Under the pieces are notes generated by a model that was not told the origin of the DNA, ran no database searches, and saw nothing but the letters and a program-made list of their open reading frames with translations. A stretch of 63,997 nucleotides of DNA, filler included, from Collodictyon triciliatum (lineage: Eukaryota): NCBI GenBank assembly GCA_043381765.1. It is 5 parts of 5 records of this genome, joined end to end, with 100 filler letters (N's around TTAATTAATTAA, not from the genome) between each part and the next. Parts side by side here need not be neighbours in the genome. Positions count along the whole stretch, not along the records: positions 51,336 to 63,997 come from JBHJMP010002129.1; 4 more parts are not named here. The stretch is one strand, 5' to 3'. The position numbers were made by a program, and so were the translations under genes. Shown here in pieces: positions 6,298 to 63,997 of this stretch; position 1 is the stretch's first letter; each line of letters opens with the position of its first letter.

Positions 6298-6846
6298 NNN
6301 NNNNNNNNNNNNNNNNNNNNNNNNNNNNNNNNNNNNNNNNNNNNNNNNNNNNNNNNNNNNNNNNNNNNNNNNNNNNNNNNNNNNNNNNNNNNNNNNNNNN
6401 NNNNNNNNNNNNNNNNNNNNNNNNNNNNNNNNNNNNNNNNNNNNNNNNNNNNNNNNNNNNNNNNNNNNNNNNNNNNNNNNNNNNNNNNNNNNNNNNNNNN
6501 NNNNNNNNNNNNNNNNNNNNNNNNNNNNNNNNNNNNNNNNNNNNNNNNNNNNNNNNNNNNNNNNNNNNNNNNNNNNNNNNNNNNNNNNNNNNNNNNNNNN
6601 NNNNNNNNNNNNNNNNNNNNNNNNNNNNNNNNNNNNNNNNNNNNNNNNNNNNNNNNNNNNNNNNNNNNNNNNNNNNNNNNNNNNNNNNNNNNNNNNNNNN
6701 NNNNNNNNNNNNNNNNNNNNNNNNNNNNNNNNNNNNNNNNNNNNNNNNNNNNNNNNNNNNNNNNNNNNNNNNNNNNNNNNNNNNNNNNNNNNNNNNNNNN
6801 NNNNNNNNNNNNNNNNNNNNNNNNNNNNNNNNNNNNNNNNNNNNNN
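6298..6846. other. Intra-scaffold assembly gap (N run)
   Basis: Run of N without the TTAATTAATTAA linker. Confidence 0.99.
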
Positions 6847-12748: not shown

Positions 12749-12848
12749 NNNNNNNNNNNNNNNNNNNNNNNNNNNNNNNNNNNNNNNNNNNNTTAATTAA
12801 TTAANNNNNNNNNNNNNNNNNNNNNNNNNNNNNNNNNNNNNNNNNNNN
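12749..12848. other. Artificial contig linker N44-TTAATTAATTAA-N44
   Basis: Six-frame stop spacer flanked by Ns; identical copies occur at 25587, 38422 and 51236. Confidence 0.98.
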
Positions 12849-25586: not shown

Positions 25587-25686
25587 NNNNNNNNNNNNNN
25601 NNNNNNNNNNNNNNNNNNNNNNNNNNNNNNTTAATTAATTAANNNNNNNNNNNNNNNNNNNNNNNNNNNNNNNNNNNNNNNNNNNN
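25587..25686. other. Artificial contig linker
   Basis: N44-TTAATTAATTAA-N44. Confidence 0.98.
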
Positions 25687-38421: not shown

Positions 38422-38521
38422 NNNNNNNNNNNNNNNNNNNNNNNNNNNNNNNNNNNNNNNNNNNNTTAATTAATTAANNNNNNNNNNNNNNNNNNNNNNN
38501 NNNNNNNNNNNNNNNNNNNNN
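38422..38521. other. Artificial contig linker
   Basis: N44-TTAATTAATTAA-N44. Confidence 0.98.
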
Positions 38522-51235: not shown

Positions 51236-51335
51236 NNNNNNNNNNNNNNNNNNNNNNNNNNNNNNNNNNNNNNNNNNNNTTAATTAATTAANNNNNNNNN
51301 NNNNNNNNNNNNNNNNNNNNNNNNNNNNNNNNNNN
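51236..51335. other. Artificial contig linker
   Basis: N44-TTAATTAATTAA-N44. Confidence 0.98.
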
Positions 51336-52077
51336 TGTTTTTTTGTTTTTTTGTTTTTTTGTTTTTTTGTTTTTTTGTTTTTTTGTTTTTTTGTTTTTTG
51401 TTTTTTGTTTTTGTTTTGTTTTTTGTTTTGATGCGCGCGTTGAGTGGCTGAATGATTCGTTGGTGCAGATCAAAGCTTCTGGGCTGAAACTTTCATTGAA
51501 ATTGTACATTTTTGTATAATTATTTGATTAGAAGATCAAACACATATGGAGAAATTCCTCTTTTGGATCTCAATTATAATCAAACTATATTTATACATAT
51601 GGAAATTATAATATAAATGTATAAAATGAGAAAATAAACAAATATTCTCATAACTGCATCAAAATTTATGAAAGGCTATGTAAATGTAGCTTTACAGTAA
51701 TACCTCTGAGGATATCTCGGCCTGATGGGTGCGGGTTGACAAAAAGGCAACGCGTCGTATTACAAGCAGTTTGACATCACACTTGAACTCACCCTCTCCG
51801 CAGGTGTTTTCAAAACATAAATAGAACATTAAAGTAAAAAAGAAAAGAAAAAAAAGAAAAAAAAAGAAAAAAGAAAAAAGCACGAAAAAGACCCAAACCT
51901 ATATTCGAAGCAAACGCAAAGCATCAGAGAGAAAAACCACAAAATAACTCAACCTTCCTCGGTGTTTTGTCTATGTAATATCTATATCAGACCGAAGTGA
52001 TGATTGGCGAATTAGGGCAACGAAGGCCTCTTTGTAGACTTGTCTTTCTTTATACGTCGTTGAGCATGATGAACATA

Positions 52078-55000
52078 TTACTTCATCGAGTCGGAATCAA
52101 CAAGGAAAATCAGATCATCCTGAGAACAATGATACTTCCTCGCCAGGGATGCCAGATCCGATTTGCCTCGAAGTTCAGAGACATTTTCCCAATAATCCAC
52201 AGACACTCGCTCAGCGATGTTCTTTAGACCATGGTCACAAAGATACTCCACAACCTCTCCACGGTACATATCTTTTATCGGAGAGTACTTGAGAGGAAGC
52301 AAGCGTTCTGATGCGTCAAAACTTGAGCTGAGCTGCGCTGATAAAACTTCGCTCAGATATGTCGAGACTACGTCCAAGTTCGGTCTTAGTTTGTAGTTTT
52401 GTCTCCAACACACTTTCATTAGCCTCTCAAATACCAGCGGCGTATTTCTTGGTATTTCAGGTCGCAATCCATTCATCGACGGGGCTTGCCCCATATTCCC
52501 CAGAAACGGCTCCACACCTGAAAACATAAACCAAATGAGCAAAGCTAAGGCGTATACGTTACTCAACTCTCCTCTATGGCCTATATTCACACAGTCATCT
52601 CCATATTGGGTGACATCTTCATAATAGGGCGTGCTTACGACCTCTTGTATTTCAGGGGCTTGCCAGTTGGATGTTCCATCCTGTTTCCATTCACCAAACC
52701 TAGTGGGTAAATCGGAGCCAATTTTGTCCTCACTTCGATGACTTACAATTCCAAAATCAGCTATTTTGGCGATTCCCCTTACCACCATGATATTGTCAGC
52801 TTTTAAGTCTTCATGAAAGAGATTTTTAGCATGCATGAATAAAAGACCCTTGCATATATGTGATGCAAAGTTGGTGATACCAGAAAGACCGGGTCTGTGT
52901 TCGATCTCGTTGGACATTATTTTTTTCAATGATGCTCCAGCATTTTCCATCACCATATAAAATTCAGTATCCTTACGAAAGACCCCAAAAAGCTTGACGA
53001 TGTATTCGCAATTGCTACATTCGTGCATGTACTGGCTTTCATACACCAACGAACAAACAACGTCGCTAAAATCTTGGTTTCCAATCTTCCCCACTGTCTG
53101 AATTTTTACCACTGCTTCGTTTCCTCTGTAAAATGTCCTGTAGACTCGCCCGTAAGACCCTTTTGCAAGATAATCCACAAGTTCGATCTCGTCATCGACC
53201 CATATGTCACTCAATTTCAAATTTAGCATACTTAAATCATACTTAGCATCCTCCCTTTTCGTTTTGGATGGCTTCGTTCTCATCCGCGACTGAAATCGTT
53301 TGGATATACCTACATCAACGAAATTTGTTATTGGTATTATACGAGTTGCGTGATGACATCCAAGGCTTTTGCACTTTTTTTTTCTGAAAAAAGAAAAAGA
53401 AAAAGAAAAAGAAAAAGAAAAAGAAAAAGAAATTTTCTATTTCCGGTGGCTATTTTCCATTTAAATACTTTCAAGATAAACCTTCCTCCAAAAAGACTCT
53501 GCCTCTTTTTGTCAAATCCCTATCCAAAACATGACCTGAAGTACATATTCCCAACTCAGAATCACCCACAGCACACGATGTCCGGACGATTCCACCTGAC
53601 TGTCTGATTCTGCACTCGTAACATTCAAAGTGGCATGCTTGAACAAAATTTGGGCGGATGTCGCATATTTTTCTTATTAAAAGCAGCAACACCTCAAAAA
53701 GTTTGATGTATTCGATCTGTTGGTCCATCTCATACTTTCTTATCGTCAAGCTAATGTTATTCTCACCAATCACGATTAGAACTCTTAGATCCTCACCTGG
53801 TACCAGACATACGTTATCCGACTGCCCGATCTTGTTTAAAGTTACGTGAATGAGGGCGGCGTTTGTGAAAAATTGATTTTCATACTGCACACCAAGAGGC
53901 GAACCTTTTGTCAAGGCGAGGGCTTGGACAATAATATTGCTTTTGTCGGACAATTGAACCCCCGAGTCGCACTTTAATTCCATAGATATTTCTGAGACAC
54001 AATTAGCTTCGGGTTTAAGACTCCATATCGAATGAATGTCCAAACATCGTTCCATCAAAGAAGGAAAGGCCACACATTCCTTATTGAAGCTTATTCCAAG
54101 TCCAAAGTGTTCAAAAATGTGAATGATTATTGAAAACGTTCTTTCATCCATTTCGATGTTTAGTTCAGAATTAATTTTTTTCTTCAGCTTTTGCAAAAGT
54201 ATGATACCATTCGATTCTTTTCCCAACCCCCGGAAACTAAAGACGCACCGAAAAATGTTTATAAGAAACAATGGATCTAGAAACACGATACTTTTAATGC
54301 TTTCGAGTGATGAATACCAAATTATCGAACCAAGGTCATGCAGATATTTCAGAGCGCTCTCGACATGAGTACGGCCTAATCGTAAACTCTTTTCTCCAAA
54401 TTCAAAGATATCGTCAACACTTACATACTTTACTGATTTTCCTTTTGAATGCAAATAATCTTTCATATGTATGTAGGCAATAGGGACATCGACATTAACA
54501 TTTCCTAATTGCATCATAGCTTGATAGATAGTTTTCTTCATGTCGCTGATTCCTTTTCCAGTCTTGTTACTAACTCTCAGCTCTGTTTCAATAAAGGAAT
54601 GATGTCTATTTGTCCGTTTAATAATTTCGATTTCTTTTTTCATTTCTCCCGAGCTCGATGGATTCTTTCTGTCTCTGTGGGTGCCCAGAATTACAACTTT
54701 TGAGCCTGGAGCGAAATCATCCAACATTTTTACCCATCGGGCAAGATTATTTCTCTCCTTACCCTGGTCTAGTCGGTATACTATCAAAACAAGTGCTCCA
54801 GATGAAAGAAAGAATGGATGAGTGATTTGGAACTCTTCTTGACCTCCAAAATCCCATATTTTGAGAGATAGTTTGGTTTGAAACAGTTTCCCAACAGTTG
54901 ATTCATCAATATCCACACGGGCAATACCATCTGTTCTTTCTTGAAAATTACCCGAAGTGCTTTTGAAAAAGAAAGAGTTTTGAAGCAAAGATTTTGTTAG

Positions 55001-56506
55001 TGTCGTCTTTCCAGCCTCTCCTTCGCCAAGTAAAAGTATCCTACCCTGTGTCCATTTTGCCATTCCGTTCATGGATAGCATTAAAAAGTTAAAAACCGAT
55101 ATTGGTCCTTGGTTGATTACATCTTTTGGGATATTCTTGATTGGATTGCCATTGCATATTAGTCCCTTGTCAAGCAAACTCAGGCTCCCGATCAATGGCG
55201 GAATTTTTTCGACCTAATGCCCGAAAAAAATGTATTCTTTGGATGCATATATATGAAGGAGGGTGTTTTTTTGTTTTGTTTTGGATTATTTTAATTATTA
55301 TTATTGAACGAATATTGAGAGAAAATACCTTGTTATGGGAAATATCAAACACTTGCAAGCATGTCAGATTGGCTATGAGATCAGGGATGTGTGATATCTA
55401 CACAAATTGACGTTTCTGGAATAAAAAACGGACTCGGTCGTGTTTTTTTATTACAAATTTTACCTTGTTGTTAGATAGGTCGATTTTCTTGAGTGAGGTC
55501 ATTTCAAACAGCCAACTCGGCAGTGTAGATAGCTGTGGTAATTTCTTGCGTTAGTTAATATGTAACCACCCACAATATTTGTAATTCAATCATATCCAGT
55601 GTACAGATATGGAGAAGGACCTGAATTGAGTGAAGTCCAAGCCTAGTCAGGTTAGATAGACAAGTTAAAGGCCTTGACACGACAGAATTCTATATTGATT
55701 ATTATTTTATAAATATAGAAGCGAGTCAATATGCAGTAAATTAGTCAAGATACCATATTGTTTGAAAAATCCAAGGAATCTATCTGGGTGAGAACAGAAA
55801 GATACGATGGAAAGCAGTCCATCTGAGTTGTTTTCATATAAAATATTGTTAAGGGTGAGCGAGAATTAAAACATGAGTGTTTATAACGGAAAATTTTTAC
55901 AAGTAGTGGCCATCCCAACCTCATTGTGTGACAAATCAATTGCTTTCAGGTTTGTCAAATGCGTTATAGATGCTGGAAGATGTTTAATTTTTTTCCTTTT
56001 GAAGCTCAGAATTGTCCATGATTCTACTTGTTCTGCGTTTGGAAACCAATTGAACTTTACAACGTCATCTGCCTATTGCATCATAGTTTTTTTTATTGGT
56101 ATTCGCATACCGTTAAGTTAAAGTTATGGAAATGAGGATATTATGATATATAATTATTATTATTATTTTTTAGAAAAAAGGCAGGGGCTTCTTACTGGGT
56201 CATAAAGATGAAGTATTCGAAGAGACTCAGCTATTGAGATTTCTCCTTGCTTTTCTGCTTCATTGGACCAACATGGCAGCTCAGAAATTCCTACAGGGGC
56301 TCTTTTGACATTCATTTGTCCCGAATCACTTCGCAAGTACAGTCTCTTTAAGTTTGTTAACGCACACAACCAAGGGGCTAGTTCCTCCATCTATTTTAAT
56401 TATCAGAATAATAATTTTTGATTGATAATACGGCGCATGAATCACGGCATTTCCCACCAGCAATATTTGATATTGTGAATGAGGTGATTTTTAAATACGT
56501 TTGCGC

Positions 56507-56605
<99 letters not shown>

Positions 56606-57111
56606 CTACTCACTGGGTTGTCATCGATGCACAAAGACATCAGTTGGGCAAGGCGAGACATCCAAGTCGGCAAACAGGAGAATTGGTTGCTTGAAATATC
56701 GATAGAAATCAAACTCTTTAGAGACAAAAGACTCTCTGGCAGTGCTGATAGCTGATTGGCAGATATATCAATGTCTTGCAAATTTGTCATTGCAAGCAGC
56801 TCGATGGGAAAGCTTGAAAAGCGGTTTCTCTCGATCCCCAAAACCTCCAAATGTCTCAAGCACGATACCTCGGCCGGGAGGAACGAAAGCTCATTGTTGT
56901 AGAAATTCAGCACTACCAAGCGAGTGAGCTCAAATAGAATCTCTGGAAGGATGGCGAGCTTTTTGCTGCTGAGATCAAGGCCGGTGCGTTCTCTAAGCGA
57001 GTCGATGCTTTGTGCGTGGGCAGGAACAAACAGCGAGAGATCGCCGAGACCTGTGTCTGCTGCTGCCATTCTATTCGCTGATTGGATACGAGAAAGTGCT
57101 GAGTTTGACAT
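52078..57111 (-). CDS. ROCO protein kinase (LRR-ROC-COR-kinase), ~1360 aa, 9 exons: 57111-56614, 56390-56196, 56072-55920, 55822-55754, 55689-55621, 55532-55464, 55397-55329, 55213-53482, 53309-52078
   Basis: 23-aa LRRs; ROC motifs LLGEGEAGKTTL, RTDGI, IWDFGGQEEFQITHPFFL, GTHRD; COR motifs ALKYLHDLGSIIWY, VFLDPLFL, FPSLM; kinase motifs GSYGRVY, AVVK, HEDLKADN, DFG, WQAPE, CWRQNYKLRP. Confidence 0.92.
56507..56605. repeat. (AAT)n microsatellite in ROCO intron 1
   Basis: Direct tandem repeat. Confidence 0.96.
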
Positions 57112-57459
57112 CGAGTCTTATTCTTTGCTTGTGCTCTGAGGAAAGAGCAGATGCACCGCGTTTGGGGAGTGTATGGGGCTGCATCTGCGCTGCTTGATCG
57201 TCTTCTGTGATCTCCTTCTGAGACCGTTTTCCTGTGATCGTTTATGCAAAGATTTAAGTGCACAAAAGGATTGGTTTTGGACAAAGGCAACTCTTCGTCG
57301 TTCCGCCCTTTGTCCAATTTTGGCGAAGAGTCACCACATTCTTTCTTTTTCTTTTTTTGGAAGATGTTTTTTGTGTACTCCAGTTCTTCGAGTCCACATG
57401 ATTTGATTGACATTGATATGTCAACGCGAGGCGAAGAATGCGATCGGCCGGATCGAAGC

Positions 57460-57765
57460 CTTTCCCTTTTCCCTTTTCCCTTTTCCCTTTTCCCTTTTCC
57501 CTTTTCCCTTTTCCCTTTTCCTTTTTCCTTATTCCTTTTTCCTTTTCTGTTCTTCTTTTTCCTTTTTCCTTTTTCCTTTTTCCTTTTTCCTTTTTCCTTT
57601 TTCCTTTTTCCTTTTTCCTTTTTCCCTTTTCCTTTTTCCCTTTTCCCTTTTCCTTTTTCCCTTTTCCCTTTTCCTTTTTCCCTTTTCCTTTTTCCCTTTC
57701 CCTTTTTCCCTTTTCCCTTTTCCCTTTTCCCTTTTCCCTTTTCCCTTTTCCTTTTTCCTTTTTCT
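57460..57765. repeat. Long polypyrimidine (CCCTTTT/CCTTTTT)n tract between the divergent ROCO and membrane protein genes
   Basis: Degenerate heptamer repeat. Confidence 0.95.
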
Positions 57766-57788
57766 GTTCTTCTTATGGTTGAATGTAG

Positions 57789-59762
57789 ATGAGGATCGGG
57801 TCTCTTGAAGAACACAGCTCCGATTCCGGTGTGGGAGTCGGGGCGATAAACGCATGGAGCGGAAAGAGCGCCTGCTCAAGGGAGGATGTAAACTCCAATA
57901 GCAGTATCAACCAAGTCCATGAGGCGTACGAAGCCTCAAGCGAATGCGCCGCACCTGATGACGATAAAAAACAGAGTCGGTACCAAGCAATGAGCCAAAG
58001 CGAAGAGCAGAGCGAAGCACACAAACCCCAAGGAATCGAAAAGAAATCCACAATCAAGCTTGTTCTTAACAAGGGCATTCAAACCATCGATAGACGCCTG
58101 ACCCTATTTTCACTCATGTTTAGAAACGAGAAAATTCAAAGGCTTCTCATTCGCATGTATAAAAGAACCAGTGTCTCAGCAGCGCTCGGTGTATTCTGGG
58201 CTTTCTGCACCATCGTTTCACTATCGATCTGCTTTCAAAGACAGGTGATATCCTCTTCGGTATACATCCCTGTTCAGTCGTGCTTCATGTTTCATTTTGT
58301 GATGCATCATTCGATGTTCATCCGTGTTGGCATTGTCAAGGAGTTGGCAAAGTCATTCAACTTTTGGTTTACCTTGTGGAACACAGTCTCGTTCCACACC
58401 TGCTTTGTGCTTCTCTCGGGTGTGACGGTAGAGAGCATCTTTGCCGCCGTCCACTCAACTGTCAGTTTATTCCTGATTTTATTACTCTTTGATGCGCATG
58501 CCGCAAAGCACCTTCGAATTATGAGAATGATTTTATTCGTGGGAATTTTTTCTTACATACCGGTGATTGTAATGCTTGCCTTCGGGTTGGCAGATTTGCA
58601 CACAGAGAGAATCAACTACCCTCCACACGATGTCGAAATTGTAAACCTTCGGCTTCAGGCAATAGATAACCTTTCAACCTTGATGATTTACTTACTTCGA
58701 ATTGTTTACAATCACATATACTTGAATCAGCCAACAACAATCGCATATATATCGAGATTCTATGCCATCAACAATAACAAGGAACCAGCTTCGATGATGA
58801 CTTTAGTTAAAGGAAATGAACGTGCCTGTCGTAGCAGAAGCAGAGACACAGAAGTTGCAGAAACACAAATTGAACGCCCGACAGAACCCAATATACCTTT
58901 ATATGAAAATCAATTGAACGAGCCATTTGATATAGAAAAAGGATTTGATGACATTGATGGGCATGTTGTAAAAAAAGACGGCGAAAATCAACAAATGTCA
59001 TCAGAAACCACTGACGAAACGAAAAAGACTCTACACAATTATTTGATTATGGGAATCCTAGACGACAAAAGTTTAGAGTATGACTTGCATCAGACTTGGT
59101 ATCATATCCTGCTAGTCAAACATTACAAACAAATCGCAAAGATTCTAAAGTCGAAATGGTACAATGCCTTGGGGATTCTTTTTACCATGGCCTCCATCTT
59201 GTTGTCGCTCCCCTTGGCTGCACGGTTTTATGACGGACTTGTCTTTCATTATTTTGGAGTAGTGACTATACTCTTGGGCATTGTGTTTATCTTTATTCAG
59301 ATGCTCTCCACCAGTAATTTTATTATGCTTCGCCATATGGTCCACTCGTTTGACTTTTGGTATGTCATGTTCCTTATGTGCAAGATATATGTAGCATCCG
59401 GTGTGCTTTGTGATTGGGACGTTCGCATGCTCTTTTGGTTTTACTCTATCCTGGGATTGAACTGGTGCTTCATGGTTGATGCGCTTCATATCTGGTCCCG
59501 CAAGTTGTCCAAACTATCGATATTTGGCTTGGTGTGGATGTTGTGTGCTTTTATCTTGTGCAAAGCAAATATTGGAGACACGTTTGAGCAAGACCGCTTT
59601 GTTCACTTTAATCGCATAGACTTTATGTCCGCCAGAGTTACGCTGTCATCCTCGGCATTCTCTGGCAGCATATTCTTTCTTCGCTTCTACTGGAGCTATC
59701 TCAAAAACCCAAACAGAATTTTGTTCATTACGGAAAACGTGAGAGTTGAGAAGATGATGTAG
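57789..59762 (+). CDS. Intronless 657-aa multi-pass membrane protein with two homologous transmembrane halves; function unknown
   Basis: Single long ORF with two hydrophobic blocks separated by an acidic linker; paired motifs KSFNFWF/HSFDFWY, LFDA/MVDA and YLLRIVY/FFLRFYW. Confidence 0.85.
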   Translation: MRIGSLEEHSSDSGVGVGAINAWSGKSACSREDVNSNSSINQVHEAYEASSECAAPDDDKKQSRYQAMSQSEEQSEAHKPQGIEKKSTIKLVLNKGIQTIDRRLTLFSLMFRNEKIQRLLIRMYKRTSVSAALGVFWAFCTIVSLSICFQRQVISSSVYIPVQSCFMFHFVMHHSMFIRVGIVKELAKSFNFWFTLWNTVSFHTCFVLLSGVTVESIFAAVHSTVSLFLILLLFDAHAAKHLRIMRMILFVGIFSYIPVIVMLAFGLADLHTERINYPPHDVEIVNLRLQAIDNLSTLMIYLLRIVYNHIYLNQPTTIAYISRFYAINNNKEPASMMTLVKGNERACRSRSRDTEVAETQIERPTEPNIPLYENQLNEPFDIEKGFDDIDGHVVKKDGENQQMSSETTDETKKTLHNYLIMGILDDKSLEYDLHQTWYHILLVKHYKQIAKILKSKWYNALGILFTMASILLSLPLAARFYDGLVFHYFGVVTILLGIVFIFIQMLSTSNFIMLRHMVHSFDFWYVMFLMCKIYVASGVLCDWDVRMLFWFYSILGLNWCFMVDALHIWSRKLSKLSIFGLVWMLCAFILCKANIGDTFEQDRFVHFNRIDFMSARVTLSSSAFSGSIFFLRFYWSYLKNPNRILFITENVRVEKMM

Positions 59763-59949
59763 CACTTGCCTATTGCCTGTTATTTGGAAATGAAAGTCCT
59801 CCAAACAGGCGATTCGCATGCTTTTTTTTTTTTTTTTTTTTGTTAAGAAACTCTTAATTAACCACTTCTTCAACAACAATTACAACAATAATAAACGGAA
59901 CATCTGCAGGTTTTCGAATGAAAATATATATATATTGGTATTTCTTGCT

Positions 59950-60051
59950 TTGTGTTTTGTGTTTTGTGTTTTGTGTTTTGTGTTTTGTGTTTTGTGTTTT
60001 GTGTTTTGTGTTTTGTGTTTTGTGTTTTGTGTTTTGTGTTTTGTGTTTTGT
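59950..60051. repeat. (TTTTGTG)n microsatellite
   Basis: Direct tandem repeat. Confidence 0.95.
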
Positions 60052-60397
60052 GGTTTATATACATCAAGCGTCGAAACGTTATCCTTTGGAATTTACTTCG
60101 TCGCGGTGTTTTGTGCTTGAGTTTTTATTGACAGTTTTGACAGATCGAATCATCCTTTCAAAGCTGTGTGCTTCTTTGGTGGCGTGTGTATAGAAGGCTT
60201 CCTCTCTCTCTTAACTTTTTTTCTTTTTGTCTCGCTCTCTTCCTCTCCTTCTTTTCCACTACCGATCAAGGCTACATAGCAAGTTGAGAACATTTTGTGT
60301 TGGCGTTTTTGCGGCTGAGAGCCAAGACCGACGTGTGAATTGATTTCCTAAGCTTGGCAGATTCTCTGTGCCTGCAGCTGCTGAGAAGACTGAGAAG

Positions 60398-63300
60398 ATG
60401 GCCGACTCGAGGGTATACTTGTTGTTTGAAGCTGTCTTTTAGATTTTCTTTTCTTTCTTTTCTTTTCTTTTTCTTTCTTTTCTTTCTTTTCCTTTCCTTT
60501 CCTTTCCTTTCCTTTCCTTTCCTTTCCTTTCCTTTCCTTTCCTTTCCTTTCCTTTCCTTTCCTTTCCTTTCCTTTCCTTTCCTTTCCTTTCCTTTTGTTT
60601 TGTTTTGTTTTTCTTTTTCATTTATTTTTCTTTTCTTTTCTTTTTTTAACCTTTTTTCTTTGTGCTAGATTACATCTATTAGTCTTAGTCCATCAGTTTC
60701 AGTGAATTTTTCATCACGTTACATTATCTTAGGATCGAGGTCCTATTATCCAAGGATTTCTGAAAAAGAAAAAGATTAATAGCTGGAGCTGGAAAGGTTT
60801 TGCGAAATGAATGGAATATTCTCATTTGTTTATCTACTTGTTTTTACTAATTTATTCAGTTTTTGGTTTAATGATATGTATTAATTCATTCATTCATTCA
60901 TTGTTTACAATTTGTTTAGATTAATTCCGACAGGAAATCTAATTTTTGTTTTAAAAAAGTTTAAGGATTCCACCGCTGTCTTACCTTCATTCTCAGACTA
61001 CTTTGTTGAATAGACTCATGGAAATTCAAGCTGACATTCCCTTTTATCCTGCAGAGCGATGGTGCTGCTTATACCCAACACAACTTCTGTTCTACAAAAG
61101 GCGCTACGATTTGGATCCAATTAACACAATCTTATTGACAAACATGACCGGAATCCACCACGCAGAATCAATTCCTGAGCATGGAGTAGCGTGAGTGCCC
61201 ATCGCAAAATCTCGGCCTGTTTCTGAATTTTCTTCAGTTGTTTATTTTACTTTTGTCTTTGTCTTTGTCTTTGTCTGTGTTTTTGTTTTTGTTTTTGTTT
61301 TTGTTTTTGTTTTTTCTTTTTCCTTTCTTTTTCCTTTCTTTTTCCTTTCTTTTTCCTTTCTTTTTCCTTTCTTTTTCCTTTCTTTTTCCTTTCTTTTTCC
61401 TTTCTTTTTCTTTTCTTTTTCTTTTCTTTTTCTTTTCTTTTTCTTTTCTTTTTCTATTTCTTTTTCTTTTTCTTTTTCTTTTTCTTTTTCTTTTTGTTTC
61501 ATCTTGAATATTTTTTTCTTGCCATCGTCTTGAGTAAGTAATTGACCAATTTATCAGGTCTGAGCAAGTAGCCCGAGCAGTCGTGATTGATTTTGGTGTG
61601 CCTTCCATCATTCTCCTCTGGGAGACTCAGGACGGGGCGAACCACTGGAAAGACCTCATCCAGCTCTCTTGGGAAAAAAGCATGCGTGACCACAAGGCTG
61701 TAAAGATGGACCCTAGCCAGCTTACCCAGAAAGAGGGATATAAGGTTAGCTGCATTCCGATAATGTGCATCTATTTGCTAGATCTATTCATGTTCTTGTG
61801 CAGACATTGTATCTTGCTACTGGCCTCAATTCAAGAGTTGTTTATATATAAAAACACCCGAAATTATAGTCTATTCAAATCGAAGGAACATTGCAAAAGC
61901 GCACGTTCACAAGCTGGAGATGGCGGTCGCGGTACTTTGTCTTGGATGGATTTACATTCACATACTTTAAAGACTCCAACAAAACCGAAACAGTTGGAAG
62001 CATAGTTTTTGATGAAACTGTGAAACTCCGAATCAATCCCCAAAGCTTCCCTGGCATCAGTAAAGACGAACTGGAGCGATGTTTTGCTCTGATATGCGGC
62101 ACAAAGGACACCTGCTTCATGGCTGAGACTGCATCCAAGAAGAAAGAATGGATTGGAGTCATCTCTGTTGTTCTTCAAAATCTAAAGATTTCATATGGCT
62201 CATCGGCGACCGAAATGAACCCCCAGCCTCCAGCAGACGTTTTGCAGTTATCTTGCACACCGTCTGACGGATCAGAAACCCAAGCCTCGCATAATCACCC
62301 TGTTGAAATAAGTTCGCCTCGGGAGGTGAAATCAGTAGTCCACGAACTCACAAAAAGGATGAGTCTGAATCACACCACTCTAAACGAATCGCCATCAAAG
62401 GCAAATCCTTCAACTTCAGAGCTATCGAAAAAGGTTATTTTCTGCATGACCTCTTCTGGTCTTGTTACCCCTCTTTCCTTCCTATTTTATTTTTGACTCG
62501 GGTTCTTCTATTTCTACATTAATTAGATGATAACTCATGCACTATACCACAGGATGACCCAAGGGCCGGTTTGGTTTTCCTGGTACGAAAAAGTACAAAC
62601 AAGAAGGGATGGAAACAGAAGCATGTGATAATCCTGCCGCGCGACCTAGCGTACTACAAACCTGACCTCAATGTTGATAGGTAGTTGTTTGCTAACTTTG
62701 CAAAGATAAAATATTTTTTCTTTTTTATTCTTTGACCATCATCAAAGCTTTTGAAAACTCTTCCATCAGGGAGGACATGAAGAAGGTACCGCTAGATTTG
62801 ATTACAAAGATTCAAAAGGCGTCCGAGGCAAAGGACGAACTATTTGAAGACTTTGAGCTTTCCAACTTAAACAGATGTATCATTTTGTCCAATCCAAATG
62901 CCAAGATGTTTATTTTATCTGCTACTGAAGAGGTATCTCAGAGATTGTACGACGATCTCATCATCGCTCGTGCAAGGAGAGAACGAAGCCTTTCAAAAAC
63001 GCTGCCTCTAAGACGAAGGTCTTTTTTATTTTCTCTCTTTATTATTATACCTTTCAAATGGCAAGGTTAATCTTCCGGTATACACATAACCATGTCAAAA
63101 CCACGACCAGGAACCTCATCAAGTCACGTGAATAATCGACTCAAATAAACTTTTCTCTATCACATTCTCTGCAGCATTAATCGAACAACATTGTCGGGCT
63201 CCCCTAAAATACATACACTCGAGCCATTCGCAGAGCAATCAAAAGAAGATCACCATCAGACAACCACAAAACTAGATGAGAGCCACGTGTTACTATCCAA

Positions 63301-63956
63301 AAAGTTAAACGACATTGCGGCAGCTTCCATTGCAGAAGAAAACGATGAGCAATGCGAAGCTGTTTCCAAGTTTTTTGGAACGACTGGTCGATCGGGCAAC
63401 TCCATAGGCGAAGAAGTATTTGATACTGATATATTTGACTTTCTTCAATTGGCCATTAGCATTTCTCTTCTGTTTTGGTTTATTTTGGTTGACTATCATA
63501 TTTTCTGACATGATTGAAATATTGATTTTCTTTTCATTTTGTTTCAGGCAGCGCCAGTTCTATTCAGTCCTCCAGTCCCCATCACGAGAAGCACTCCACC
63601 TCAACAATCACAAACAACAGCCTCCTTTTCTCAACCCACAAGCATTAACTCCTCGATACCTAAGACAATGTCGAGCTCGAGCCTTAAAAACATATTCACA
63701 TCTGTGGTTTGTAAATTATTTGCTGTGTTTTTTTTTTGTGACAATGCCTTCTTTTTCTTTTTCTTCCTTCTTTGTTTTCTATTTTTCTTATTATCTGATG
63801 ACGATTTATTAAATTATTTCATAGGAGGGACTCTTCTTGTCAAATGACCGGGTTGAGAAAGCGTTGCTGTATAAGGGGAAATTACGACTTTCAAGTCTGC
63901 GAAAACAAGATAGGACATTTTACGATTGCAATCTCCTCTATCTCAAGAAAAAAGAG
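60398..63956 (+). CDS. Multi-PH-domain protein, 3' end truncated by the window end
   Basis: PH1: IIQGFLKKKKINSWSWK|ERWCCL...NHWKDLI. PH2: IEGTLQKRTFTSWRWRSRYFVL...KKEWIGVI. PH3-like: AGLVFLVRKSTNKKGWKQKHVII...LAYYK. Confidence 0.87.
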
Positions 63957-63997
63957 GTTTGGGGCTGTTAGATAATTTATTTATTTATTTTTTTATA

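What the first reader, a model, noticed from the sequence alone, without database searches (positions are those of the whole stretch)
55329..56614. ROCO gene with a one-LRR-per-exon symmetric cassette (candidate modular receptor system)
Seen in sequence: all seven introns in the LRR region are phase 0 and fall at the same register of the repeat (DDNP|, LYDP|, SHNE|, SNNM|, HSIQ|, SNNK|, SHNK|). Four consecutive exons are exactly 69 nt, i.e. one 23-aa LRR each (55822-55754, 55689-55621, 55532-55464, 55397-55329). The ROC-COR (1732 nt) and kinase (1232 nt) exons, in contrast, are unusually long and uninterrupted for this genome. Any such exon can be skipped, duplicated or swapped without a frameshift. 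Established: one-LRR-per-exon ROCO genes with exon shuffling were proposed as candidate pathogen receptors in the brown alga Ectocarpus. Inference: a similar diversifying receptor could exist in this flagellate.
Basis: partly seen in the sequence, partly recalled or inferred. Interest (0 to 1): 0.75.

Follow-up and report, generated by a model that had tools for sequence, protein, structure and literature searches.

The report
ROCO kinase gene with single-repeat exons
This is an intact, expressed LRR-GTPase-kinase (ROCO) signalling gene of a freshwater flagellate in which four leucine-rich repeats each sit on their own 69-base exon; the structure is real, but nothing available shows that the cell uses it to mix and match repeats as an immune-type receptor.

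Summary
On the minus strand lies a nine-exon, 1347-codon LRR-Roc-COR-kinase gene (52078-57069). All seven introns in the LRR domain are GT..AG, phase 0 and sit right after 'LxLxxNx'. Four consecutive exons are exactly 69 nt. Spliced contigs of run X1, about 1% diverged, reproduce six of the eight junctions and carry exons 3-7 in order; no skipping joint is listed.

The 'diversifying receptor' reading finds no support. The LRR units are old: 13-48% amino-acid identity, third codon positions at chance level, introns unalike. No relic LRR exons occur in introns or on the other strand. The X1 comparison gives 16 synonymous against 11 non-synonymous changes.

Exon length, phase, register and domain order all differ from the Ectocarpus system (72 nt, phase 2, no kinase; PMC3341825, PMC11378527).

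The nearest relatives are nine old ROCO paralogues and one LRR-kinase of Diphylleia rotans, at 26-38% identity. Isoform breakpoints in that LRR-kinase fall at the same repeat register, so the intron positions look ancient.

Verdict: an ordinary ROCO kinase with inherited repeat-register introns. No whole genome was held, so the number of paralogues in this organism is unknown.

The parts
56614..57069 (-). Exon 1, coding part from the assumed ATG (57069-57067). It holds an N-terminal cap and five regular 23-residue LRRs in one exon. The exon probably begins at 57077, behind a 5' intron.
   Evidence: Pfam LRR_8 1.4e-14. An X1 contig lies on 56615-57076 with 27 and 41 unplaced letters at its ends.
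56391..56613 (-). Intron 1: 223 nt, GT..AG, phase 0, placed after 'DDNP'. About half of it is an (ATT)n microsatellite (56501-56613).
   Evidence: No joint is listed, because the repeat was skipped by the tool.
56196..56390 (-). Exon 2: 195 nt, holding one regular LRR and a 42-residue irregular unit with the motif RAPxGISxLPCW. Intron 2 (56073-56195, 123 nt, phase 0) follows 'LYDP'.
   Evidence: It aligns from its first residue to Diphylleia P0166 residues 137 and 276. RNA joint 56072/56196.
55920..56072 (-). Exon 3: 153 nt, holding a 28-residue irregular unit and one regular LRR. Intron 3 (55823-55919, 97 nt, phase 0) follows 'SHNE'.
   Evidence: RNA joint 55822/55920.
55754..55822 (-). Exon 4: 69 nt, one 23-residue LRR. 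Intron 4 (55690-55753, 64 nt, phase 0) follows 'SNNM'.
   Evidence: RNA joint 55689/55754.
55621..55689 (-). Exon 5: 69 nt, one degenerate LRR. Intron 5 (55533-55620, 88 nt, phase 0) follows 'HSIQ'.
   Evidence: RNA joint 55532/55621.
55464..55532 (-). Exon 6: 69 nt, one LRR. Intron 6 (55398-55463, 66 nt, phase 0) follows 'SNNK'.
   Evidence: RNA joint 55397/55464.
55329..55397 (-). Exon 7: 69 nt, one LRR. Intron 7 (55214-55328, 115 nt, phase 0) follows 'SHNK'.
   Evidence: RNA joint 55213/55329.
53482..55213 (-). Exon 8: 1732 nt, holding the last LRR and C-terminal cap, the Roc GTPase (P-loop, DxxGQ and THRD motifs read in the translation) and COR. A CxxC...GH motif conserved in the relatives closes it. 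Intron 8 (53310-53481, 172 nt, GT..AG, phase 1) follows.
   Evidence: Pfam Roc 4.9e-20 and COR-A 2.6e-12. PDB matches 4wnr, LRRK2 and 3dpu/6hlu. Invariant C531, C534 and H561. Intron 8 is inferred from frame and splice signals only.
52078..53309 (-). Exon 9: 1232 nt including the stop. It holds a TKL-type protein kinase (VVK, HED in place of HRD, DFG, APE) and a tail of about 90 residues with no family match.
   Evidence: Pfam Pkinase 3.1e-28. Best PDB matches are RIPK1 and MLK1. 34% identity to the Diphylleia LRR-kinase. The tail has no Pfam hit at E<=1.

Best explanation
The locus is one intact, transcribed gene for a protein of about 1347 residues with the order LRR (about 14-15 repeats), Roc GTPase, COR, protein kinase. 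No signal peptide or membrane segment is evident by eye (not tested with a predictor).

It most likely works like other ROCO kinases. The nucleotide state of Roc, read through COR, controls a TKL-type kinase, and the N-terminal LRR solenoid binds a partner and/or covers the kinase. This step is inferred from recalled LRRK2, Roco4 and bacterial Roco work; nothing was tested here.

The phase-0 introns, all at one repeat register, are an old inherited footprint of how the LRR array was built: an exon-plus-intron unit duplicated long ago. They are spliced constitutively today. The gene belongs to an old, diversified ROCO/LRR-kinase family typical of Diphylleia-like (CRuMs) flagellates.
For: - Gene model and motifs.
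- Expression: spliced contigs give 6 of 8 junctions. One contig (depth 4.2) runs exon 3-4-5-6-7, another exon 7-8 and another exon 2-3. No alternative joint is listed in any of the 4 runs laid.
- The same exon set is present in X1, which differs at 27 listed coding positions, 16 synonymous and 11 non-synonymous.
- Age of the units: pairwise 13-48% amino-acid and 22-58% nucleotide identity among 12 units. Third-position identity among the four 69-nt exons is 0.17-0.43, against 0.25 expected. Introns are not alike (15 pairs, best z 2.4) and there are no cross hits between exon-plus-intron units.
- Old intron positions: in the Diphylleia LRR-kinase cluster, the three isoforms switch sequence exactly at 'GNP|IQELP' and 'GND|ITELP'. 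That is the register of the window's introns, and window exon 2 aligns from its residue 1 to both places.
- Family: the window's Roc-COR groups with 9 Diphylleia ROCO clusters (support 89/97) and has no one-to-one orthologue; its end branch is 1.21.
Against: - No biochemical or genetic test exists, so the mechanism rests on analogy.
- Logan contigs drop rare variants, so minor exon-skipped isoforms are not excluded.
- X1 is only guessed to be RNA. The precise GT..AG removal of six introns is what argues for cDNA.
- Introns 1 and 8 lack a listed joint.
- The intron positions in Diphylleia are inferred from isoform breakpoints, not from genomic DNA.
- The first five repeats have no introns although three of their four internal borders (plus the border before the first unit) end in AG like the intron-bearing ones. 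Intron loss, or later gain in the 3' repeats, must therefore be assumed.
- The kinase has HED instead of HRD, so its regulation may differ from LRRK2.
Confidence: 0.7

Rival explanations
1. This is an Ectocarpus-like diversifying receptor. The 69-nt phase-0 exons would be skipped, duplicated or exchanged, within the gene and among paralogues, to generate variable LRR surfaces that sense pathogens or prey and signal through Roc-COR-kinase.
For: - The exons are symmetric and equal in length, so the arithmetic allows it.
- The nearest relative carries a ROCO family of at least 9 clusters. Some are fused to STAND-type ATPase modules (DUF4062, AAA_16, NPHP3_N), which gives an immune-receptor-like look.
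- The kinase is non-RD (HED). From memory, that trait is frequent in pattern-recognition receptor kinases.
- LRR-part changes against X1 are 5 non-synonymous to 5 synonymous, against 6:11 elsewhere, but p = 0.69.
Against: - No skipping joint in the spliced contigs.
- Exon number and order are identical in the diverged source.
- Units and introns are saturated, with no recent copies.
- No relic LRR in introns, on the other strand or anywhere in the five pieces of the window; the next best HMM score is 8.4 bits, E 0.49.
- No second ROCO or LRR gene on the 12.7-kb piece.
- Among 8 Diphylleia clusters with two or more isoforms aligned, none shows a clean in-frame loss of 23-residue multiples.
- LRR units of the Diphylleia proteins are also old, at most 57% identical within a protein.
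- Exon length, phase, register and domain order differ from the brown-algal system.
Confidence: 0.1
2. The shared register would come not from duplication of an exon-plus-intron unit but from repeated independent intron gain at a proto-splice site that recurs in every repeat (the codons for N-K/Q/E end in AG). On this reading the cassette look is a by-product of sequence periodicity.
For: 4 of the 7 intron-bearing borders end in AG (GAG, CAG, AAG, AAG), and the same AG ending occurs at intron-free borders in exon 1 (AAG, GAG, CAG). The units and introns keep no trace of common descent.
Against: - Three intron-bearing borders do not end in AG (CCA, CCA, ATG).
- The same register is inferred at two borders of a Diphylleia gene only 32-39% identical in this region, which fits inheritance better than repeated gain.
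- All seven introns share the exact nucleotide position.
Confidence: 0.15
3. The gene model is an artefact: two or three separate genes (an LRR protein, Roc-COR, a kinase) wrongly joined, or a decaying pseudogene.
For: No contig bridges intron 8 between Roc-COR and the kinase. No public protein combines this Roc-COR and this kinase at more than 38% identity.
Against: - The LRR-to-Roc junction is carried by a spliced contig (55213/55329).
- The Roc-COR frame has no start of its own after the LRR and stops 11 nt beyond a GT donor. The kinase frame opens behind an AG 172 nt further on, in the matching phase.
- The whole 4044-nt frame is open.
- Changes against X1 are mostly synonymous in all parts.
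- X1 and X2 contigs cover the kinase exon and the 3' end.
Confidence: 0.05

Closest known systems
Brown-algal LRR-ROCO genes of Ectocarpus and kelps (Zambounis et al. 2012, PMC3341825, passages and section 15 read; Teng et al. 2024, PMC11378527, passages read)
   Same: Both are ROCO proteins with an N-terminal LRR array in which single repeats are encoded by equal-length, frame-neutral exons.
   Different: - The brown-algal exons are 72 nt (24 residues) with phase-2 introns and the border after 'NxLx'. Here they are 69 nt (23 residues), phase 0, with the border after 'Nx'.
- Brown algae have LRR-Roc-COR only; this gene adds a kinase.
- All but one of the brown-algal ROCO genes have a repetitive one-LRR-per-exon structure; here it is 4 of about 14-15 repeats.
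- Brown algae show relic exons in introns, recombined recent duplicates, gene clusters, several splice variants and positive selection. None of these was found here.
LRR-Roc-COR-kinase ROCO proteins: LRRK2/LRRK1 and Dictyostelium Roco kinases
   Same: The domain order LRR, Roc, COR, TKL-type kinase is the same. Roc-COR matches LRRK2 chains at about 1e-17 to 1e-18, and the kinase matches the TKL kinases RIPK1 and MLK1.
   Different: - No armadillo, ankyrin or WD40 domains were detected in the pieces scanned.
- Identity is low, and LRRK2-like sequences fall outside the window/Diphylleia clade.
- The catalytic loop reads HED rather than HRD or YRD (YRD is recalled).
- That the LRR covers the kinase in LRRK2 is recalled and was not tested.
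Diphylleia rotans (CRuMs) ROCO and LRR-kinase transcripts in EukProt EP00002
   Same: - These are the nearest relatives of both halves: Roc-COR 26-38% in 9 clusters, kinase 34% in one LRR-kinase.
- They share the irregular LRR unit with RAPxGISxLPCW, the conserved CxxC...GH at the end of COR, and the inferred exon borders at the same LRR register.
   Different: - None combines Roc-COR with a kinase. The four largest of the five scanned carry DUF4062 and/or STAND-type ATPase modules (AAA_16), and P0003 carries PH.
- There is no one-to-one orthologue.
- Only transcripts are available, so their introns are not seen directly.
Tetrahymena LRR genes with arrays of 90-bp exons (PMC6564038, passages read)
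   Same: Both show equal-length LRR exons separated by introns of one phase, read as clonal expansion of an exon-intron unit.
   Different: The Tetrahymena exons are 90 bp with phase-2 introns. There are tens of thousands of exons in thousands of young, species-specific genes, linked to a retrotransposon. Here there are four exons in one old gene.
Vertebrate glycoprotein-hormone receptor LRR exons (as cited in PMC11378527; the original papers were not read)
   Same: About one LRR per similar-sized exon, all introns in one phase, constitutively spliced in a conserved non-diversifying gene. This is the closest analogue to what I conclude here.
   Different: The vertebrate introns are phase 2, and the protein is the extracellular domain of a membrane receptor with no ROCO module.

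Membership tests
ROCO proteins | Roc GTPase domain immediately followed by a COR domain in one polypeptide | tested here: met
   Pfam Roc 4.9e-20 (residues 58-181) and COR-A 2.6e-12 (244-378) of the exon-8 translation. PDB Roc-COR matches are 4wnr at 1.3e-21, LRRK2 at about 1e-17 to 1e-18 and 3dpu at 1.9e-17.
ROCO proteins | Intact nucleotide-binding motifs (P-loop GxxxxGKT, DxxGQ, N/TKxD-type) | tested here: met
   Read in the translation: GEGEAGKT, DFGGQ and THRD. G63, G68, K69, T71, D121, G123, G124, T178 and D181 are invariant in 9 of 9 aligned family members.
LRRK/Roco4-type ROCO kinases | LRR - Roc - COR - protein kinase in this order on one transcript | tested here: inconclusive
   The LRR-to-Roc junction is seen in a spliced contig. 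The COR-to-kinase junction (intron 8) is inferred only from GT..AG, matching phase and an open frame.
LRRK/Roco4-type ROCO kinases | Catalytically competent kinase (VAIK lysine, HRD aspartate, DFG, APE) | tested here: met
   VVK, HED (aspartate kept, arginine replaced by glutamate), DFG and APE are seen in the alignment to the Diphylleia kinase. Pkinase 3.1e-28. Activity itself was not tested.
LRRK/Roco4-type ROCO kinases | C-terminal WD40 domain (LRRK1/2, Roco4) | tested here: not met
   No WD40 was found in the kinase exon, and the last 106 residues have no Pfam family at E<=1.
Brown-algal shuffling LRR-ROCO system | Each LRR on its own 72-nt exon with phase-2 introns and the type I register (GxxPxxLxxxxxLxxLxLxxNxLx) | tested here: not met
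   Here the exons are 69 nt, phase 0, with the border two residues earlier, and this holds for only 4 of about 14-15 repeats. Definition from PMC3341825 section 15 and PMC11378527.
Brown-algal shuffling LRR-ROCO system | Non-coding or inverted relic LRR exons inside the introns of the LRR domain | tested here: not met
   A six-frame HMM search with the gene's own units finds only the 12 units used to build it. The next best hit is 8.4 bits, E 0.49, on another piece of the window. The introns are 64-223 nt, too short to hold a relic exon apart from intron 1, which is mostly (ATT)n.
Brown-algal shuffling LRR-ROCO system | Recently duplicated or recombined LRR exons (high nucleotide identity within and between loci) | tested here: not met
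   Nucleotide identity among the four 69-nt exons is 33-43% (22-58% among all 12 units), third positions are at chance level, and there is no intron similarity. Between loci this could not be tested, because no genome is held.
Brown-algal shuffling LRR-ROCO system | Expanded, clustered gene family with pseudogenes | not testable with these tools
   No whole genome is held. There is no second ROCO on the 12.7-kb piece or the four other pieces. The nearest relative has at least 9 ROCO clusters, all deeply diverged.
Brown-algal shuffling LRR-ROCO system | Several splice variants differing in LRR exons | tested here: inconclusive
   Only the full exon chain is seen in X1 contigs, but contigs drop rare variants. 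Raw reads were not available.
Brown-algal shuffling LRR-ROCO system | Positive selection at the variable LRR positions | tested here: inconclusive
   One pairwise comparison gives 5 non-synonymous and 5 synonymous changes in the LRR part, none at an x of LxxLxLxxN within the 69-nt exons. The overall crude ratio is 0.19. This is far too few sites.

The most novel reading that the evidence does not exclude
Diphylleia-like (CRuMs) flagellates may own a lineage-specific 'construction kit': a 23-residue, phase-0 LRR exon module. Together with the odd RAPxGISxLPCW unit, it is shared among ROCO-kinases, ROCO-STAND ATPases and LRR-kinases. Through exon exchange over evolutionary time, and possibly low-level alternative splicing, it would have produced an innate-immunity-like receptor repertoire, independently of brown algae, ciliates, plants and animals. 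The window gene would be its first genomic example, showing the exon borders directly.
Probability: 0.1. Interest if true: 0.7.

Novelty: new member of a known kind. Interest (0 to 1): 0.3.

Why it matters
As it stands, this is a well-supported gene model for a ROCO kinase from a deep-branching, barely sampled eukaryotic lineage. No paper in the searched library mentions ROCO together with CRuMs taxa.

It adds a further lineage, after animals and Dictyostelium, in which Roc-COR is joined to a TKL kinase. That bears on whether this fusion arose several times.

It also gives a clean example of repeat-register introns with a unit (69 nt, phase 0) different from the brown-algal (72 nt, phase 2) and Tetrahymena (90 nt, phase 2) cases.

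If a genome-wide family of such exons with recent exchange were found, it would be another independent invention of exon-modular LRR receptors. Nothing seen here points that way yet.

Tried and rejected
- **RNA runs:** no listed holder is on record as RNA. X1 is labelled RNA only as a guess. X10 laid nothing. X2 and X3 cover only parts of exons 8 and 9.
- **Odd joints inside the kinase and Roc exons** (for example 52269/52613 and 52966/54309, with non-GT..AG ends and sides of 21-34 letters): I read these as short matches of other, probably paralogous, transcripts and dropped them from the gene model.
- **First metagenome scan with the single protein:** 38 pattern matches, none confirmed.
- **Second metagenome scan with alignment A1:** 80 loci, best-segment identity 19-40%, the higher values only on short segments. 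None of 85 LRR-unit hits there is bordered by AG..GT at this register, so no comparably built relative was found.
- **Word-based protein searches:** 'near' gave nothing above 28% identity, 'longer' nothing above 34%. The exhaustive HMMER search found nothing above 38%.
- **Diphylleia isoforms as a proxy for LRR cassette splicing:** the one internal 49-residue difference (P0160) is hydrophobic non-LRR sequence and looks like a retained intron. The other differences are N-terminal truncations or alternative ends. The short members P0154, P0155 and P0161 were not aligned.
- **Earlier notes of this scan:** none on this genome. The 8 shown of the 94 'ROCO' notes all concern prokaryotic fusions and do not bear on this gene.
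Full report
**What is there**

The stretch 52078-57077 on the minus strand holds one gene. Reading the sequence and rebuilding it by coordinates gives nine coding exons and a 4044-nt open frame (1347 codons plus stop).

| Exon | Coordinates | Length |
|---|---|---|
| 1 (from the assumed ATG) | 57069-56614 | 456 nt |
| 2 | 56390-56196 | 195 nt |
| 3 | 56072-55920 | 153 nt |
| 4 | 55822-55754 | 69 nt |
| 5 | 55689-55621 | 69 nt |
| 6 | 55532-55464 | 69 nt |
| 7 | 55397-55329 | 69 nt |
| 8 | 55213-53482 | 1732 nt |
| 9 | 53309-52078 | 1232 nt |

All eight introns are GT..AG, 64-223 nt long and AT-rich (GC 0.18-0.35). Introns 1-7 are phase 0 and intron 8 is phase 1.

Pfam finds LRR_8 in exon 1 (1.4e-14), Roc (4.9e-20) and COR-A (2.6e-12) in exon 8, and Pkinase (3.1e-28) in exon 9. 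Against solved structures, Roc-COR matches an archaeal Roco fragment (4wnr), LRRK2 and the Chlorobium Roco. The kinase matches the TKL kinases RIPK1 and MLK1 best.

The GTPase motifs (GEGEAGKT, DFGGQ, THRD) and the kinase motifs (VVK, DFG, APE) are present. The catalytic loop reads HED instead of HRD.

**The observation**

In exon register the repeat is a 23-residue unit, xxx[LIF]Pxx[LI]xxLxxLxx[LIF]x[LIF]xxNx.

I count about 14-15 repeats:
- five regular ones in exon 1;
- one regular plus a 42-residue irregular one in exon 2;
- a 28-residue one plus a regular one in exon 3;
- four single-repeat exons (4-7);
- one repeat plus the C-terminal cap in exon 8.

So 'one LRR per exon' is literally true for four repeats, and 7 of the 15 tabulated unit borders carry an intron.

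Random intron placement does not give this. The chance of 7 of 7 in phase 0 is 0.0005-0.03, depending on the assumed phase-0 share. A common nucleotide register has a probability of about 1e-11.

As an outside control, 0 of 85 LRR-unit hits in 80 distantly related ROCO loci from metagenomes are bordered by AG..GT at this register.

**Transcript evidence**

One public run, X1, is labelled 'RNA?' as a guess. It is kept as contigs, comes from coded organism A, and holds 0.42 of the sampled words.

Laid on the locus, it gives joints at 55213/55329, 55397/55464, 55532/55621, 55689/55754, 55822/55920 and 56072/56196, all CT..AC on the plus strand.

Depths and side lengths show three contigs: one running exon 3-4-5-6-7, one running exon 7-8 and one running exon 2-3. 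No joint that skips an exon is listed in any of the four runs laid.

For intron 1, a contig stops at 56615 with 41 letters unplaced; the (ATT)n repeat was skipped by the tool. Intron 8 has no bridging contig.

The same contig leaves the genome at 57076/57077, behind an AG, with 27 letters unplaced. A 5' exon probably exists, and the start codon is therefore an assumption.

Contigs cannot show rare isoforms, so this is evidence for a dominant full-length form, not proof of a single isoform.

**Variation**

X1 differs from the window at 27 listed coding positions, 16 synonymous and 11 non-synonymous. The crude ratio per site is 0.19.

The LRR part has 5 non-synonymous and 5 synonymous changes against 6 and 11 elsewhere (Fisher p = 0.69). 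The two replacements inside the 69-nt exons (codons 326 and 350) lie outside the x positions of LxxLxLxxN.

Exon number and order are the same in both sources. X2 (coded organism B) carries the 3' end with 1 difference in 946 nt.

**Is the cassette young or active?**

- The 12 regular units share 13-48% of residues and 22-58% of bases.
- Among the four 69-nt exons, third-codon positions agree at 0.17-0.43, against 0.25 expected from composition.
- The flanking introns are no more alike than shuffled sequence: 15 pairs, best z 2.4, from a shared AAT-type run. Exon-plus-intron units give no blastn cross hits.
- An HMM of the gene's own units, run on all six frames of the window, finds only those units. 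The next hit scores 8.4 bits (E 0.49) on another piece.

There are thus no relic or inverted LRR exons, which are the hallmark of the brown-algal loci (PMC3341825, section 15). The introns are also too short to hide any.

**Context**

The window is not one locus. Four N44-TTAATTAATTAA-N44 linkers join five pieces of about 12.7-12.8 kb. The gene's real neighbourhood is only 51336-63997.

On that piece there is:
- a head-to-head 657-codon uninterrupted frame without a Pfam match (57789-59762);
- a PH-domain frame (61870-62493);
- no second ROCO or LRR gene, on this or any other piece.

The neighbour's 1974-nt frame shows that long uninterrupted coding stretches are not special to the ROCO gene.

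**Relatives**

No whole genome is held. Public proteins hold nothing close:
- the word-based searches give at most 34% identity;
- an exhaustive HMMER pass over 1.84 billion representatives gives 7555 hits at E<=0.001, 11 at <=1e-30, and none above 38% identity.

The best eukaryotic hits are nine different ROCO clusters of the freshwater flagellate Diphylleia rotans (EukProt EP00002). The only strong match to the kinase exon is a Diphylleia LRR-kinase (34%).

In a Roc-COR tree, the window groups with the nine Diphylleia sequences (support 89/97, not above the tool's star threshold). It has a long branch of its own and no one-to-one partner.

The organism is therefore probably a relative of Diphylleia (CRuMs). 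This is an inference from paralogue-level similarity, not a proof. The small, near-identical shares in freshwater metagenome runs would fit, but only X3 was laid.

Of the five Diphylleia ROCOs scanned, four carry DUF4062 and/or STAND-type ATPase modules after COR and one carries PH. None carries a kinase.

**Age of the intron positions**

The three isoforms of the Diphylleia LRR-kinase cluster are identical downstream of, and unrelated upstream of, exactly 'GNP|IQELP' and 'GND|ITELP'. Breakpoints of that kind are expected at exon borders.

Both lie at the window's register. Window exon 2 aligns from its first residue to both places (E 8e-09 and 2e-07), including the unusual RAPxGISxLPCW stretch.

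This suggests that the register, and at least this exon, predate the split of genes that are now 32-39% identical in this region.

Across 8 Diphylleia clusters with two or more aligned isoforms, no clean in-frame loss of whole repeats is seen. LRR units of the Diphylleia proteins examined are at most 57% identical within a protein.

**Comparison with the known systems**

[quoted passage not shown] Relic exons lie in the introns and recent duplicates have recombined LRR regions (PMC3341825, section 15).

The gene here differs in exon length, phase, register (two residues earlier) and architecture (it has a kinase), and it lacks every dynamic feature that could be tested. It is at most a convergent layout.

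The same brown-algal paper notes LRR-kinases with single-LRR exons and no sign of shuffling, so the layout alone is not diagnostic.

Arrays of equal LRR exons in one phase are also known from Tetrahymena (90 bp, phase 2; PMC6564038, passages). According to PMC11378527, they also occur in vertebrate gonadotrophin receptors.

No paper in the searched library combines ROCO with Diphylleia, Collodictyon, Mantamonas, CRuMs or Rigifila: among the 10 papers listed of the 97 that hold two or more of the terms, 'ROCO' occurs in none.

**Conclusion**

The best reading is an ordinary, functional ROCO kinase whose LRR introns are old, inherited and constitutively spliced (confidence 0.7). The mechanism, Roc/COR-gated kinase with an LRR partner-binding or autoinhibitory arm, is by analogy only.

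The diversifying-receptor reading keeps about 0.1. It needs a genome-wide census and junction-level RNA data, neither of which was available here.

Independent intron gain at a recurring AG proto-splice site remains a possible origin of the pattern (0.15).

Noticed in passing
window 12749-12848, 25587-25686, 38422-38521, 51236-51335; also 6298-6846: Four identical artificial linkers (44 N, TTAATTAATTAA, 44 N) cut the window into five pieces of about 12.7-12.8 kb. A separate 549-N gap lies at 6298-6846. Linkage across the linkers is not real, so 'context' for any gene is limited to its own piece.
   Followed up: yes
window 57789-59762 (+): A 657-codon uninterrupted frame lies head-to-head with the ROCO gene. 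It has no Pfam family at E<=0.001 and many hydrophobic stretches, so it may be a multi-pass membrane protein. The region of about 700 nt between the two genes is largely a GA-rich microsatellite (about 57400-57790).
   Followed up: partly
window 56501-56613 (intron 1) and 53382-53438 (intron 8): There is a long (ATT)n run in intron 1 and a (CTTTTT)n-type run in intron 8. Both made the read-laying tool cut contigs there. They are likely to vary in length between strains.
   Followed up: no
window 53482-53620 (end of exon 8); alignment A1: A CxxC ... C..GH pattern closes the COR region. C531, C534 and H561 of the exon-8 translation are invariant in 9 of 9 aligned family members. It may be a metal-binding knuckle specific to this ROCO clade.
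   Followed up: no
window about 52700-52720 (kinase catalytic loop): The kinase has HED where its Diphylleia relative has HRD, so it is a 'non-RD' kinase. From memory, this trait is common in immune-receptor kinases; it was not tested further.
   Followed up: no
window 56196-56390 (exon 2); P0166 residues 137-200 and 276-316; P0160: An irregular long LRR unit with the motif RAPxGISxLPCW is shared by the window gene and by Diphylleia ROCO and LRR-kinase proteins. It occurs twice in P0166. It looks like a lineage-specific LRR variant.
   Followed up: partly
proteins P0160, P0156, P0002, P0005 (Diphylleia rotans): These have the architecture LRR - Roc - COR - DUF4062 and/or AAA_16/AAA_22/NPHP3_N. 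That places a ROCO switch and a STAND-type ATPase in one 1900-2400-residue protein, an NLR-like combination I have not seen described.
   Followed up: no
loci L004, L011-L013, L015-L020 and others (contigs JAAUXT01...): About 28 of the 80 metagenome loci come from one assembly, and most match the query only from residue about 117 onward. This suggests a large ROCO family with a shared intron position in another, unidentified eukaryote.
   Followed up: no
window 61870-62493 (+): This frame has a PH domain (3.2e-10), probably one exon of a larger gene downstream of the ROCO neighbour.
   Followed up: no
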